DNA from: a virus
Taxonomy: Duplodnaviria; Heunggongvirae; Uroviricota; Caudoviricetes
DNA: 55,013 bases
Strand: one strand, 5' to 3'
IMG/VR virus record: IMGVR_UViG_2880412407_000004
Part shown: one piece after another, positions 21,502 to 24,665 of the stretch
Layout of the letters: each line of letters starts with the position of its first letter
Numbering within the stretch: position 1 is the stretch's first letter
The notes under the pieces: model-generated
Databases searched by the model: none
Seen by the model: only the letters and a program-made list of their open reading frames with translations
What the model was told of the DNA's origin: nothing
Translations under genes and position numbers: made by a program

Positions 21502-21791
21502 TAAAAAAAGCCAGCGACTGACCTGAAAAAGAAGACGCTGGCTAAAAGGCCTTATATGTTTGTAGAGACTTATTTTTCACAGACAGCAATGATGCCTGTC
21601 AATATATTATCAATATGCGGATTGTTTCAGTTACAGATGCCTTATTAAGGAAAAAAACAGCCAGCACTGACTTTCGGTGGAGAGGTGCTGGCTCAAAAGG
21701 ATAGATGTACTTCACATGTTGCTTCTATATGGCAGTACATTTTCTGACAGACAGTGACGGATGTTGGTAAGCGCCCCATCTGCGACGTCTT

Positions 21792-22523
21792 GTGAAAATT
21801 GTCCTGTCTGGCAACAATCGCGCCCATCTATATAGATGGACACGAACGATGAATTCCCAGACAAAAAAAGATATTCCCTGCTTCCGTTCTTATTTGCCTG
21901 ATGCTCTGCGTTTAAGATTTGAAGATAAACTGACCATCCGGGCCATCGCTCAGCGTCTAGGTCTCAGTCATTCCACAATACATACGCTTTTTCAGCGATT
22001 TATTGCATCCGGTATCGCATGGCCATTGCCCGATTCAGTTTCATTAGCTCAGCTTGATGCCATCCTTTATGCCAACAGAAAGAAGGAATTAACAGAGCCT
22101 CAAATCAGCGAAGGCACATGGCGAAAAGAACGGCGAGCCAGCTACAGCCGTGAATTTAAGGTCCGTCTGGCTAAGCAGGCATTACAGCCCGGTGCTGTTG
22201 TTGCCCGGATCGCCAGAGAGCACGGTATCAATGATAACCTGCTGTTTAAATGGAAAAGCCAGTACGAGGACGGCTTACTGAGCGATGATGACATACAGGA
22301 ATGCATGCCTGTCCCGGTGGCTCTGACTGATACGCCAGAGCCGACCAGACCAGTTACAAATCCCTTCTGGCGTAACAAGCCTGATGAGTGCCCTGAGAGT
22401 GATCCCGGAAACGTCCCACGGTGCGAGCTGCATCTTAAATCAGGTGTGGTAAAACTGTTTGACCCTCTCACTCCGGAAATGTTACGGGCGCTAATCCGCG
22501 AAATGAAAGGAGGTACCCGATGA
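21792..22523 (+). CDS. tnpA: IS66-family accessory protein TnpA
   Basis: First of three co-oriented IS ORFs; start uncertain (possible ATG at 21849). Confidence 0.7.
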   Translation: MKIVLSGNNRAHLYRWTRTMNSQTKKDIPCFRSYLPDALRLRFEDKLTIRAIAQRLGLSHSTIHTLFQRFIASGIAWPLPDSVSLAQLDAILYANRKKELTEPQISEGTWRKERRASYSREFKVRLAKQALQPGAVVARIAREHGINDNLLFKWKSQYEDGLLSDDDIQECMPVPVALTDTPEPTRPVTNPFWRNKPDECPESDPGNVPRCELHLKSGVVKLFDPLTPEMLRALIREMKGGTR

Positions 22524-22867
22524 TAACGCTGCCAACCGGTACCAGAATCTGGATCATCGCTGGCATCACAGATATGCGTTGTGGCTTCAACGGCCTGGCT
22601 TCGAAGGTGCAGAACACGCTGAAAGATGACCCGTTCTCCGGGCATATCTTCGTCTTCCGGGGCCGCAGTGGCAAAATGGTGAAAATACTGTGGGCCGATC
22701 GTGACGGGTTATGCCTGTTCGCCAAACGCCTGGAACGGGGCCGCTTCGTCTGGCCGGTAACCCGGGAAGGGAAAGTGCACCTGACGCCAGCTCAGTTATC
22801 CATGCTACTGGAGGGGATCGCGTGGCAACATCCCAAACGGACAGAACGGCCTGGCATCCGGATATAA
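22520..22867 (+). CDS. tnpB: IS66-family Orf2 (TnpB)
   Basis: 115-aa ORF MITLPTGTRIWIIAGITDMRCGFNGLASKVQNTLKDDPFSGHIFVFRGRSGKMVKILWADRDGLCLFAKRLERGRFVWP typical of IS66 Orf2. Confidence 0.85.
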   Translation: MITLPTGTRIWIIAGITDMRCGFNGLASKVQNTLKDDPFSGHIFVFRGRSGKMVKILWADRDGLCLFAKRLERGRFVWPVTREGKVHLTPAQLSMLLEGIAWQHPKRTERPGIRI

Positions 22868-22886
22868 CCCGTGATAAAACAGGGGA

Positions 22887-24443
22887 ATGAACAACACACT
22901 CCCCGACGACATCGAGCAACTGAAGGCCCTGCTGATCGCACAGCAGGCTGTTATCGTCCGTCTGTCTGGTGAAATAACCGGCTATGCCCGCGAGATCAGC
23001 TCACTCAGAGCGCTGGTCGCTAAACTGCAGAGAATGTTGTTCGGTCGCAGCAGCGAGAAAAGCCGCGAGAAGACAGAAAAGAAGATCGCACGGGCAGAAA
23101 CGCGTATAACCGAGCTCCAGAACAGGCTTGGTGAGGCGCAGTTGCAACTCACCTCAATGGCCGGAGAGACAGCGCCGAAAACATCAGACTCTCCCGTCCG
23201 CAAAGCACTTCCGGCAACACTTCCCCGTGACAGGCAGGTTATCTCCCCGGCAGAAACCGAATGCCCCGTCTGCAGCGGCAAACTGAAACCGCTGGGAGAA
23301 AGCATCTCTGAACAACTGGATATCATCAACACCGCGTTCAGGGTAATCGAAACGGTTCGCCCAAAACTGGCCTGCAGCCGGTGCGACTGTATAGTTCAGG
23401 CTCCGCAGCCACCAAAACCCATCGAGCGCAGTTACGCCAGTCCGGCTCTGCTGGCCCGCATAATCATGGCTAAGTTCGCCGAGCATCTGCCGCTGTACCG
23501 TCAGTCGGAAATCTATGCCCGCCAGGGCGTGGAGCTGCACCGCAATACGATGGGGCGCTGGGTTGACATCATGGGAGAGCAGCTTCGCCCGCTGTATGAT
23601 GAACTGAAGCACTATGTGCTGATGGCGGGTAAAGTGCATGCCGATGACACGCCGGTAAATGTACTGGAGCCGGGTCAGGGTAAAACCCGTACCGGACGGC
23701 TGTGGGTCTATGTTCGTGACGATCGCAACGCCGGTTCGACCATGCCGGCAGCGGTGTGGTTCTCATACTCTCCCGACCGCAAAGGCATCCACCCACAGCA
23801 ACATCTGGCGGACTACAGAGGTATCCTGCAGGCCGATGCATATGCGGGTTACAATGCTCTTTACGAAAGCGGTCAGGTAACCGAAGCGGCTTGTATGGCA
23901 CATGCCCGACGCAAGATCCACGATGTACATGTCCGCCATCCAACGACAGTAACGGGAGAAGCGCTCCGTCGTATCGGGGAACTGTACGCTATCGAGGCTG
24001 AGATCCGCGGCAGTCCGGCAGAAGAGCGACTGGCGGTCAGAAAAGCCAGAACGGTACCGCTAATGCAGTCGTTGTATGAGTGGCTCCAGGGGCAGATGAG
24101 CACGCTGTCGCGCCACTCGGATACAGCGAAAGCGTTCACCTATCTGCTGAAGCAATGGGACGCTCTGAACGAATACTGCCGCAATGGCTGGGTGGAGATC
24201 GACAATAACCTGTGTGAAAACGCCCTCCGGGTAGTTGCACTGGGGCGGCGTAACTACATGTTCTTCGGCTCTGATGGTGGAGGCGAGAGTGCGGCAGTGA
24301 TGTACAGCCTGATCGGTAGCTGCAAACTTAACGGAATCGAGCCGGAAACGTGGCTACGCCACGTGATCAGTGTAATCAACACCTGGCCTGCCAACCGCGT
24401 GAAAGAGTTGTTGCCCTGGAATGTCACTCAATCTGTAAACTAA
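22887..24443 (+). CDS. tnpC: IS66-family transposase (TnpC)
   Basis: 518-aa ORF with N-terminal leucine zipper-like region, CxxC...CxxC zinc-binding motif and DDE-type core typical of IS66 transposases. Confidence 0.9.
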
Positions 24444-24665
24444 TTTTTACCCCACGTCCTTCACGGTGCGCTTACGGATGTTGTCAAGATATTGTGTCAT
24501 TTATAACCTGAATCAGGGGAGGCCGGAATGTTATCTGGCATTTTTAGCAGAGCCTGAATGCCATAATCACGGCTCCCGGCGTTGGCCGTCAGTGGGTGAC
24601 ACTGGCGGCTTTTTTGTTTTTCTTTACTTTCATTTTCTGTCGGCGGTGACGGAGACATACATCAG

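What the first reader, a model, noticed from the sequence alone, without database searches (positions are those of the whole stretch)
21767..24475. IS66-family element inserted between the late promoter region and the lysis cassette
A complete 2709-bp IS66-family element with inverted-repeat ends and a perfect 8-bp target duplication (GGATGTTG) lies 190 bp upstream of the holin gene, in the same orientation as late transcription. It separates S-R-Rz and the morphogenesis genes from the late promoter by about 2.7 kb and may impose polarity on late expression.
Basis: seen in the sequence. Interest (0 to 1): 0.45.

Follow-up and report, generated by a model that had tools for sequence, protein, structure and literature searches.

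The report
Ordinary IS66-family insertion in prophage
A known, multi-copy jumping gene of the IS66 family sits in a non-coding spacer just upstream of the lysis genes of a lambda/434-like prophage of E. coli O121:H19; it is real and cleanly bounded, but ordinary and probably has little effect on late gene expression.

Summary
Window 21767-24475 is a complete 2709-bp IS66-family element: tnpA-tnpB-tnpC on the + strand, imperfect terminal inverted repeats starting GTAAGCGC, and a perfect 8-bp target duplication, GGATGTTG. It ends 190 bp before the holin ATG.

The element is 100% identical to 10-15 other copies per genome in E. coli O121:H19. Several of those copies have their own 8-bp duplications at the same ends. 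Exactly this insertion occurs in 8 of 5426 complete E. coli genomes, at least six of them O121:H19 lineage L1. The uninterrupted site occurs in 671 genomes and, 100% identical over 547 bp, in the functional phage 434.

The insertion hits no gene. It lies in the esterase-holin spacer, about 3.6 kb downstream of the late promoter rather than next to it.

Polarity is unlikely, though untested:
- The native late transcript already crosses three canonical terminators, including one between the IS and the holin, so it depends on Q antitermination anyway.
- The Q gene is intact.
- The IS adds no canonical terminator in the late direction.

Other features question the prophage's viability more than polarity does: 55 kb length, an IS600, mismatched host flanks in a sister strain, and apparent frameshifts. 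Verdict: already known in kind; low interest.

The parts
21759..21766 (.). left copy of the 8-bp target-site duplication, GGATGTTG
   Evidence: A single copy is present at the empty site in phage 434 (record 45564-45571) and in E. coli CFSAN004176.
21767..24475 (+). complete IS66-family insertion sequence, 2709 bp. Probably ISEc83 by copy-number match; the name is not verified.
   Evidence: It is 100% identical to 10-15 copies per O121:H19 genome. GC content is 54.7% against 47.0% in the flanks.
21767..21800 (+). left terminal inverted repeat (imperfect; GTAAGCGC perfect)
21824..21839 (.). perfect 16-bp palindrome CCATCTATATAGATGG just upstream of tnpA. A role as an operator is only a guess.
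   Evidence: (I8)
21849..22523 (+). tnpA, 224 aa from the ATG used by RefSeq; the frame is open from GTG 21792. It has an N-terminal HTH_23 plus HTH_Tnp_1.
22520..22867 (+). tnpB (115 aa, TnpB_IS66). Its start overlaps the tnpA stop as ATGA.
22887..24443 (+). tnpC, a DDE transposase of 518 aa (LZ_Tnp_IS66, zf-IS66, DDE_Tnp_IS66, DDE_Tnp_IS66_C)
24442..24475 (-). right terminal inverted repeat
24476..24483 (.). right copy of the target-site duplication, GGATGTTG
24584..24621 (+). native intrinsic terminator (11-bp GC-rich stem plus U tract) between the IS and the holin gene. It insulates the lysis genes from IS transcription and must be read through by Q-modified polymerase.
   Evidence: It is annotated as a terminator in phage 434.
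24666..24872 (+). class II (phage 21-type) holin S
24872..25369 (+). SAR endolysin R
25366..25803 (+). Rz i-spanin
19651..21501 (+). SASA/NanS-p-like esterase gene immediately upstream of the IS. In this window it is interrupted by an in-frame stop at 20194-20196.
   Evidence: It is intact in strain 16-9255 and in phage 434.
17493..18182 (+). late antiterminator Q (Pfam Phage_antiter_Q; annotated as Q82-like in phage 434), intact
18166..18257 (+). late promoter-like site (TTGCAA-17-TATACT) followed by a tR'-like terminator hairpin at 18228-18249
   Evidence: A terminator is annotated at the equivalent position in phage 434. The promoter assignment is an inference.

Best explanation
This is a bona fide, recently active IS66-family insertion sequence. 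It is the multi-copy element of E. coli O121:H19 lineage L1, most likely the one ISfinder-based work calls ISEc83.

It transposed once, in an ancestor of that lineage, into the non-coding spacer between the NanS-p-like esterase gene and the holin gene of a lambda/434-like prophage that carries NleG effector genes. The event duplicated the 8-bp target GGATGTTG. The insertion has been inherited vertically since then.

It interrupts no gene and no annotated regulatory element. It lies within the Q-dependent late transcript, about 3.6 kb downstream of the late promoter.

Late transcription in this phage type is carried out by Q-modified, terminator-resistant RNA polymerase. That polymerase already has to pass three native intrinsic terminators before reaching S. 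The IS is therefore most likely transcribed through, and has little or no polar effect on S-R-Rz and the morphogenesis genes.

Without Q, the native terminator at 24584-24621 shields the lysis genes from transcription coming out of tnpC. That would explain why the insertion is tolerated.

Shown here: the anatomy, identity and copy number of the IS, the empty site, the lineage distribution, the terminator layout and the intact Q gene. Inferred: read-through, near-neutrality, the single ancestral event and the element's name.
For: Anatomy and family:
- 2709 bp, GTAAGCGC inverted repeats and an 8-bp duplication.
- TnpA, TnpB_IS66 and a full DDE_Tnp_IS66 transposase.

Recent activity:
- 100% identical copies at 10-15 places per O121:H19 chromosome and about 3 per plasmid.
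- Three of five other copies have perfect, unrelated 8-bp duplications at identical ends. The other two share one flank, GGTTCCGC, as expected after recombination between copies.

Single event and vertical inheritance:
- The same junctions occur in only 8 of 5426 complete genomes. Six of these are lineage L1 strains in PMC8767318. The other two are an O121 strain, GTVSS-020, and a CDC isolate of unstated serotype, 2002-3211.
- IS600 insertions in the same prophage differ between strains.

Empty site:
- Unbroken in 671 genomes.
- 100% identical over 547 bp in functional phage 434. There the target lies between annotated terminators and no gene is annotated across it.

Read-through argument:
- Q is intact.
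- Canonical + strand terminators lie at 18228, 19539 and 24584, and are annotated in phage 434.
- There is no canonical + strand terminator inside the IS.

From established knowledge, not tested here: lambdoid Q proteins, including Q82, make RNA polymerase resistant to terminators over many kilobases, and phage antitermination relieves IS polarity (Adhya, Gottesman and de Crombrugghe 1974). The pR'-S interval is also naturally variable, from 3.7 kb here without the IS to longer in Stx phages that carry stx and tRNA genes.

Name: ISEc83 copy numbers of 11/2 and 10/3 (chromosome/plasmid) in L1 strains (PMC8767318 Table S4) match the 10-11 chromosomal and 3 plasmid places seen in most L1 genomes (2014C-3655 has 12 and 2014C-3599 has 15). 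Those place counts include partial matches and possibly related IS66-family elements.
Against: - There are no transcript data, so read-through is inferred, not shown.
- If the tnp genes are poorly translated, 2.7 kb of mostly untranslated RNA could invite Rho. I could not verify resistance of Q82-type complexes to Rho with these tools. No solved structure matches this Q by sequence.
- The late promoter position is a consensus match plus homology to phage 434, not an experimental assignment.
- The ISfinder name is unverified. TnpA is identical to a protein labelled 'Orf1 of IS683' in E2348/69. However, the element called IS683 on pHNSHP45 is only 72-77% identical.
Confidence: 0.78

Rival explanations
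1. Polar insertion. The IS terminates or attenuates late transcription, by Rho acting on poorly translated tnp RNA or by cryptic terminators. That would lower holin, endolysin and morphogenesis expression and help to lock this effector-carrying prophage into the chromosome.
For: - The IS adds 2717 nt to the late transcript upstream of every lysis and morphogenesis gene.
- Two weak, non-canonical hairpin plus T-rich sites exist on the + strand at about 23663-23714 and 24214-24266.
- The insertion is fixed in a lineage whose prophages are stably maintained (PMC8767318).
- IS insertions near stx2 are reported to alter toxin expression in other phages (cited in PMC8136144).
Against: - The native transcript already contains three much stronger canonical terminators that must be overridden by Q. 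One of them lies downstream of the IS.
- Q is intact.
- No canonical terminator lies in the IS in this direction.
- Only 6% of 78-nt windows in the IS have C/G above 1.5, so there is no marked C-rich, G-poor region of the kind Rho prefers.
- Antitermination classically suppresses IS polarity (established knowledge).
Confidence: 0.15
2. The IS matters through genome size rather than transcription. Together with IS600 it pushes a cos-packaged, lambda-sized genome beyond head capacity, so the prophage can still lyse the cell but cannot make viable full-length virions.
For: - The window runs 55,013 bp from the integrase stop to the last cargo gene. In strain 16-9255 the potB-torS interval is about 55.4 kb. 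Phage 434 is 47,993 bp.
- Removing the IS (2.7 kb) and IS600 (1.3 kb) gives about 51 kb.
- The lambda packaging ceiling of about 105% of 48.5 kb is established knowledge.
- No deposited phage genome among 50,697 records carries this IS.
Against: - The capsid capacity of this particular phage is unknown.
- Several lambda-like Stx1a prophage records are 54-55 kb.
- Other lesions could make the question moot: host flanks that do not belong together in strain 16-9255, the IS600, and apparent frameshifts.
Confidence: 0.25
3. Induction-coupled transposition. The IS lies co-oriented inside the late operon, so Q-dependent late transcription reads into tnpA-tnpB-tnpC. That would boost transposase synthesis during SOS and prophage induction.
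For: The IS has the same orientation as late transcription, and nothing but Q-suppressible terminators lies between the late promoter and tnpA. The element has amplified to 10-15 copies in this lineage.
Against: There is no direct evidence. A cell expressing late genes is about to lyse, so new insertions would rarely be inherited. External read-through transcription generally inhibits rather than promotes IS end activity (established knowledge for IS1, IS10 and IS50; not tested for IS66).
Confidence: 0.07

Closest known systems
ISEc83 (IS66 family), as listed for O121:H19 lineage L1 in PMC8767318 Table S4
   Same: It belongs to the IS66 family. Copy numbers of 11/2 and 10/3 (chromosome/plasmid) in L1 strains match the 10-11 chromosomal and about 3 plasmid places found for this element in most L1 genomes.
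   Different: No ISEc83 reference sequence was available, so the identity rests on copy numbers only.
IS679 of EPEC plasmid pB171, the experimentally characterised IS66-family element (Han et al. 2001, J Bacteriol 183:4296; cited from memory, paper not held)
   Same: From memory: about 2.7 kb, three genes tnpA-tnpB-tnpC, terminal repeats and 8-bp target duplications. The element here shows that architecture.
   Different: Sequence identity could not be measured, because pB171 is not in the collections. Copies 2705 bp long and 99.8% identical sit on O26 and O145 virulence plasmids, but their ISfinder name is not given there.
ISSfl4 of the Shigella flexneri virulence plasmid pCP301
   Same: The left 1151 bp (inverted repeat, tnpA, tnpB) are 96.4-96.7% identical (H100-H105).
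   Different: The tnpC part does not match at that level, so the two elements are mosaic relatives.
'IS683' as annotated on the mcr-1 plasmid pHNSHP45
   Same: It has the same three-gene IS66 organisation and a long (216 aa) TnpA. TnpA of the window element is identical to a protein labelled 'Orf1 of IS683' in E. coli E2348/69.
   Different: It is only 72-77% identical at the DNA level, so it is a different element.
Phage 434 (OL657226) late regulatory and lysis region
   Same: - The lpxR-ylcG-Q-esterase-holin region is 98.9% identical up to the insertion point and 96.1% identical after it.
- The 547 bp around the empty site are 100% identical.
- The terminators, Q82-like Q, pinholin and SAR endolysin have the same layout.
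   Different: - 434 has no IS and an intact esterase gene.
- The immunity region and the head genes differ: there is no megablast match for the head genes, and the tail genes are about 78% identical.
IS insertions in lambdoid and Stx prophages of EHEC (IS629, IS600, IS1203v)
   Same: IS elements are common passengers in late and morphogenesis regions of STEC prophages (PMC8136144; PMC8767318). This prophage also carries IS600.
   Different: Those are IS3-family elements that the IEE protein can excise (PMC9397093). I found no evidence on whether this IS66-family element can be excised that way.

Membership tests
IS66 family of insertion sequences | Three consecutive genes tnpA-tnpB-tnpC on one strand, with the tnpA stop overlapping the tnpB start | tested here: met
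   ORFs at 21849-22523, 22520-22867 and 22887-24443, with an ATGA overlap at 22520-22523.
IS66 family of insertion sequences | TnpC is a DDE transposase of the IS66 type, with leucine-zipper and zinc-finger N-terminal regions | tested here: met
   Pfam matches: DDE_Tnp_IS66 (E 7e-103, 1-283 of 284), zf-IS66, LZ_Tnp_IS66 and DDE_Tnp_IS66_C.
IS66 family of insertion sequences | TnpB of the IS66 Orf2 type (PF05717) | tested here: met
   E 4e-39, covering 2-100 of 101 profile positions.
IS66 family of insertion sequences | Imperfect terminal inverted repeats of about 20-30 bp beginning 5'-GTAAGCG (family consensus recalled from the literature) | tested here: met
   GTAAGCGC at both ends; 24 of 34 positions complementary. 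The ends are identical in five other copies.
IS66 family of insertion sequences | 8-bp target-site duplication | tested here: met
   GGATGTTG here. AGTGCACC, TTGTTTTC and ATCCATAT flank other copies.
IS66 family of insertion sequences | Demonstrated transposition | tested here: met
   The support is indirect: identical copies at many unrelated sites, each with its own duplication, and an empty site in relatives. No experiment was possible.
Named element ISEc83, IS679 or IS683 (ISfinder rule: isoforms share at least about 95% DNA identity) | At least 95% nucleotide identity to the ISfinder reference sequence | not testable with these tools
   ISfinder and pB171 are not available. The 'IS683' of pHNSHP45 fails at 72-77%. 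ISEc83 is supported only by copy numbers.
Q-dependent lambdoid late operon | Intact Q antiterminator gene followed by a promoter and a short-transcript terminator | tested here: met
   Q matches Pfam Phage_antiter_Q over 1-216 of 220 positions. The promoter-like site lies at 18166-18194 and the terminator at 18228-18249. The equivalent terminator is annotated in phage 434. Promoter function is inferred.
Q-dependent lambdoid late operon | Downstream S-R-Rz lysis cassette on the same strand, preceded by terminators that need antitermination | tested here: met
   Holin, endolysin and Rz are confirmed by Pfam. Terminators lie at 19539 and 24584.
Q-dependent lambdoid late operon | Actual read-through of the IS by Q-modified polymerase | not testable with these tools
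   This needs transcript measurements after induction.

The most novel reading that the evidence does not exclude
The IS is not a neutral passenger but a fixed attenuator or size lesion. By polarity or by over-length, it would uncouple SOS induction of this NleG/EspW-carrying prophage from productive lysis and packaging, helping O121:H19 lineage L1 to keep the effector cargo. Alternatively, late-operon read-through would couple IS66 transposase expression to prophage induction and would have driven the element's amplification in this lineage.
Probability: 0.1. Interest if true: 0.35.

Novelty: already known. Interest (0 to 1): 0.1.

Why it matters
It matters little beyond annotation. The element, its family and this very insertion are already present and annotated in public O121:H19 genomes, and IS insertions in STEC prophages are commonplace.

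The insertion is useful as a clean lineage marker for O121:H19 L1, since it is one event shared by all eight complete genomes that carry this exact element.

It could also serve as a natural test of whether Q82-type antitermination carries RNA polymerase through 2.7 kb of foreign, weakly translated DNA. If the IS did attenuate lysis or packaging, it would be one more example of prophage domestication by mobile elements.

Tried and rejected
Naming the element:
- pB171 (NC_002142, AB024946) and pO26_1 (AP010954) are not in the collections.
- Han et al. 2001 is not held.
- No paper holds both O121 and IS679. The single paper holding ISEc83 was not opened, since its title did not look relevant.
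- 'IS683' was rejected as the name, because the element so called on pHNSHP45 is only 72-77% identical.

Looking for something disrupted at the target:
- Rfam finds nothing in the Q-lysis region.
- The phage 434 annotation has no feature across the site.
- Only short mechanical ORFs cross it.

Looking for terminators inside the IS in the late direction: two independent scans found none that is canonical.

Looking for a structural homologue of this Q, to support a specific antitermination mechanism: no match in the PDB by sequence.

Artefact or misassembly was rejected. The same junctions appear in 8 independent complete assemblies.

A target-site consensus was rejected. The five known targets share no motif.
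Full report

Yes. The sequence shows GGATGTTG at 21759-21766, then GTAAGCGCCCCATC... starting at 21767. At the other end...GGTGCGCTTAC ends at 24475 and is followed again by GGATGTTG at 24476-24483.

The element is 2709 bp. Its termini are the longest inverted repeat in the region, 34 nt and 71% complementary, with the outer 8 nt perfect. An 8-bp identity at two fixed positions has a chance probability of about 1.5e-5.

Three + strand ORFs fill the element:
- tnpA, 21849-22523 (open from GTG 21792). It has HTH_Tnp_1 plus an extra N-terminal HTH_23.
- tnpB, 22520-22867, matching TnpB_IS66 (E 4e-39).
- tnpC, 22887-24443, matching LZ_Tnp_IS66, zf-IS66, DDE_Tnp_IS66 (E 7e-103, full length) and DDE_Tnp_IS66_C.

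The tnpA stop and the tnpB start overlap as ATGA. The IS has 54.7% GC against 47.0% in the flanks. The holin ATG is at 24666, 190 bp after the IS. The holin (phage 21 type), lysozyme and Rz are confirmed by Pfam.

**2. What is it, and where does it come from?**

The 2709 bp are 100% identical to 10-15 places per chromosome and about 3 per large plasmid in a set of E. coli genomes labelled O121:H19 or from the same CDC series. Copies that are 99.8% identical and 2705 bp long sit on O26 and O145 virulence plasmids.

I fetched five other copies, and all have exactly the same ends:
- Three are flanked by perfect but unrelated 8-bp duplications: AGTGCACC, TTGTTTTC and ATCCATAT. The first of these is an insertion into another copy of the same IS.
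- The two plasmid copies lack a duplication but share one flank, GGTTCCGC, in a split integrase gene. That is the signature of recombination between two copies.

The element is therefore a recently active IS with well-defined ends and no obvious target consensus.

Its formal name could not be verified.
- PMC8767318 Table S4 lists ISEc83 at 11/2 and 10/3 copies (chromosome/plasmid) in two L1 strains. That fits the 10-11 chromosomal and 3 plasmid places seen in most L1 genomes. Those place counts include partial matches.
- TnpA is identical to a protein labelled 'Orf1 of IS683' in E2348/69. However, the 'IS683' of pHNSHP45 is only 72-77% identical.
- The left 1151 bp are about 96.5% identical to ISSfl4.

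**3. The insertion event**

The junction-spanning query (window 21267-24983) is found in full in only 8 of 5426 complete genomes, at 100% identity. Six of the eight are lineage L1 O121:H19 strains in PMC8767318. The seventh is labelled O121. The eighth, 2002-3211, is a CDC isolate whose serotype the record does not state.

The reconstructed empty site is found unbroken in 671 genomes. It is also 100% identical over 547 bp in the classic functional phage 434, OL657226. There a single GGATGTTG lies at 45564-45571.

In the same prophage, IS600 sits at different places in different strains:
- in the portal gene in 16-9255;
- between V and G in 2014C-4423;
- at 48808-50072 in the window.

The IS66-family insertion is shared by all eight. 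The simplest reading is a single ancestral transposition in lineage L1, followed by vertical inheritance.

**4. Context**

The window is a lambda/434-like prophage. It runs from the integrase (1-1074, minus strand) to a cargo of four nleG genes, espW and a chaperone gene at the right end.

From ninE through Q and the esterase gene to the insertion point, it is 98.9% identical to phage 434. After the IS it is 96.1% identical. The curated 434 record therefore serves as an annotated reference. The gene order there is:
1. a truncated lambda-type Q fragment;
2. lpxR on the opposite strand;
3. ylcG;
4. a Q82-like Q;
5. a terminator 49-74 nt after the Q stop;
6. a membrane-protein gene;
7. TciB (DUF3927);
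8. a small membrane-protein gene with a terminator;
9. the SASA esterase gene;
10. two minus-strand terminators;
11. the position of the IS target, which the 434 record itself does not mark;
12. a plus-strand terminator;
13. pinholin, SAR endolysin and spanins.

In the window, Q is intact (17493-18182; Pfam Phage_antiter_Q, 1-216 of 220). A promoter-like site, TTGCAA-17-TATACT, lies at 18166-18194. It is followed by a -10-like TATGTT and then the hairpin and U tract at 18228-18257. This is the expected layout of a pR'/qut/tR' unit of the phage 82 type. That assignment rests on homology and on recalled knowledge.

The IS therefore starts about 3566 nt downstream of the presumed late start site. 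The S ATG is at about +6465, against +3748 without the IS. It is misleading about proximity, because the IS lies in the esterase-holin spacer.

**5. Does it impose polarity?**

This cannot be measured here, but the anatomy argues against it.
- The native transcript contains canonical intrinsic terminators on the + strand at 18228-18249, 19539-19557 and 24584-24610. The last has an 11-bp stem and a UUUUUUGUUUUU tail. All are annotated in phage 434.
- Phage 434 is viable with these terminators, so late expression must rely on Q-modified, terminator-resistant polymerase.
- Two scans found no canonical terminator on the + strand inside the IS. They found only two branched hairpins with poor T tails.
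- The IS shows no marked C-rich, G-poor bias.
- Established knowledge, not tested here: Q82 confers terminator resistance, and phage antitermination relieves the polarity of IS insertions.

The terminator at 24584-24621 lies between tnpC and S. Without Q, it should stop transcripts leaving the IS before they reach the holin gene. This plausibly explains why the insertion is harmless to the lysogen.

**6. Other features that bear on significance**

The prophage has other problems that are larger than any polarity.
- It is 55.0 kb long, against 48.0 kb for phage 434. This includes 2.7 kb of this IS and 1.3 kb of IS600. That is above the roughly 51-kb ceiling known for lambda heads, which is recalled knowledge.
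- In 16-9255 its integrase end abuts torS, while its cargo end abuts potB. As I recall, these loci are about 130 kb apart in K-12. That suggests an inversion between two prophages and mismatched att sites.
- The esterase gene carries an in-frame stop in the window and in 2014C-4423, but not in 16-9255.
- Rha is annotated as frameshifted in both sister-strain records.
- The window has at least seven single-base deletions in short G/C runs within the terminase, protease, FII, Z, U and tape-measure genes, relative to both sister strains. These look like assembly errors, but they could be real.

No deposited phage genome carries this IS.

**7. Comparison with what is known, and verdict**

Every defining feature of the IS66 family that could be tested is met (see the membership table). 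The element and this insertion are already annotated in RefSeq. IS insertions in STEC prophages are well documented.

The finding is a correct description of an ordinary feature, and the functional speculation is weakly supported. Novelty: already known. Interest: about 0.1.

The most novel reading left open has a probability of about 0.1. It is that the IS acts as a domesticating attenuator or size lesion, or that late read-through couples transposase expression to induction.

Noticed in passing
window 19651-21501 (stop at 20194-20196): The NanS-p-like SASA esterase gene upstream of the IS has an in-frame stop inside a short recombinant patch (about 20100-20352). The stop is shared with strain 2014C-4423, but the gene is intact in strain 16-9255 and in phage 434.
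   Followed up: partly
window 28116, 28442, 31823, 34992, 35797, 35906, 38291: The window has single-base deletions in short G/C homopolymers relative to two sister O121:H19 genomes. They break the terminase large subunit, protease C, FII, Z, U and tape-measure genes. The pattern suggests assembly errors rather than real decay. Conversely, 2014C-4423 has an extra T that frameshifts its major capsid gene, which is intact in the window.
   Followed up: partly
window 27747-28416: A dense patch of about 45 substitutions in the Nu1/A terminase junction relative to both sister strains. It looks like a recombination tract from another lambdoid prophage.
   Followed up: no
window 48808-50072: An IS600 copy lies between the side tail fibre genes and the nleG cargo. 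In 16-9255 the IS600 of this prophage is in the portal gene, and in 2014C-4423 it is between V and G. IS600 insertions are therefore strain-specific and younger than the IS66-family insertion.
   Followed up: partly
L012 and L013 (E. coli 16-9255, CP022407 1504433-1559831): The prophage is flanked by torS on the integrase side and by potB on the cargo side. As I recall, these loci are about 130 kb apart in K-12. This suggests an inversion between two lambdoid prophages, which would leave mismatched attachment sites.
   Followed up: no
window 15842-18182: A truncated lambda-type Q fragment, lpxR on the opposite strand, ylcG and a second, intact Q82-type Q. Functional phage 434 has exactly the same arrangement, so this is a native mosaic and not decay.
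   Followed up: yes
window 17283-17298: An A7G8 homopolymer tract between lpxR and ylcG/Q is one G longer in the window than in two sister strains. This is either a length-variable tract or a sequencing error.
   Followed up: no
window 21500-21522 and 21651-21669 (minus strand): Two similar GCCAGC-stem hairpins with T tracts on the minus strand lie between the esterase gene and the IS target. They are annotated as terminators in phage 434 and would block antisense transcription into the late operon.
   Followed up: partly
window 21824-21839: A perfect 16-bp palindrome, CCATCTATATAGATGG, lies inside the IS, 10 bp upstream of the tnpA ATG. It could be a binding site for the two-HTH TnpA, but this is speculative.
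   Followed up: no
window 6957-7015 (minus strand): Rfam Lambda_thermo (cIII thermoregulator) at 88.5 bits. It was the only Rfam hit in the window.
   Followed up: no
window 50179-55013: The cargo region holds four NleG-family effector genes, espW (52457-53515, minus strand) and an IpaB/EvcA-type chaperone gene. This prophage is therefore a type III effector carrier.
   Followed up: partly
L005 (2014C-3599), L007 and L009 (O121:H19 plasmids): One copy of the IS is inserted into the tnpB of another copy of itself. Two plasmid copies have exchanged flanks (shared GGTTCCGC in a split integrase gene), which indicates IS-mediated rearrangement.
   Followed up: partly
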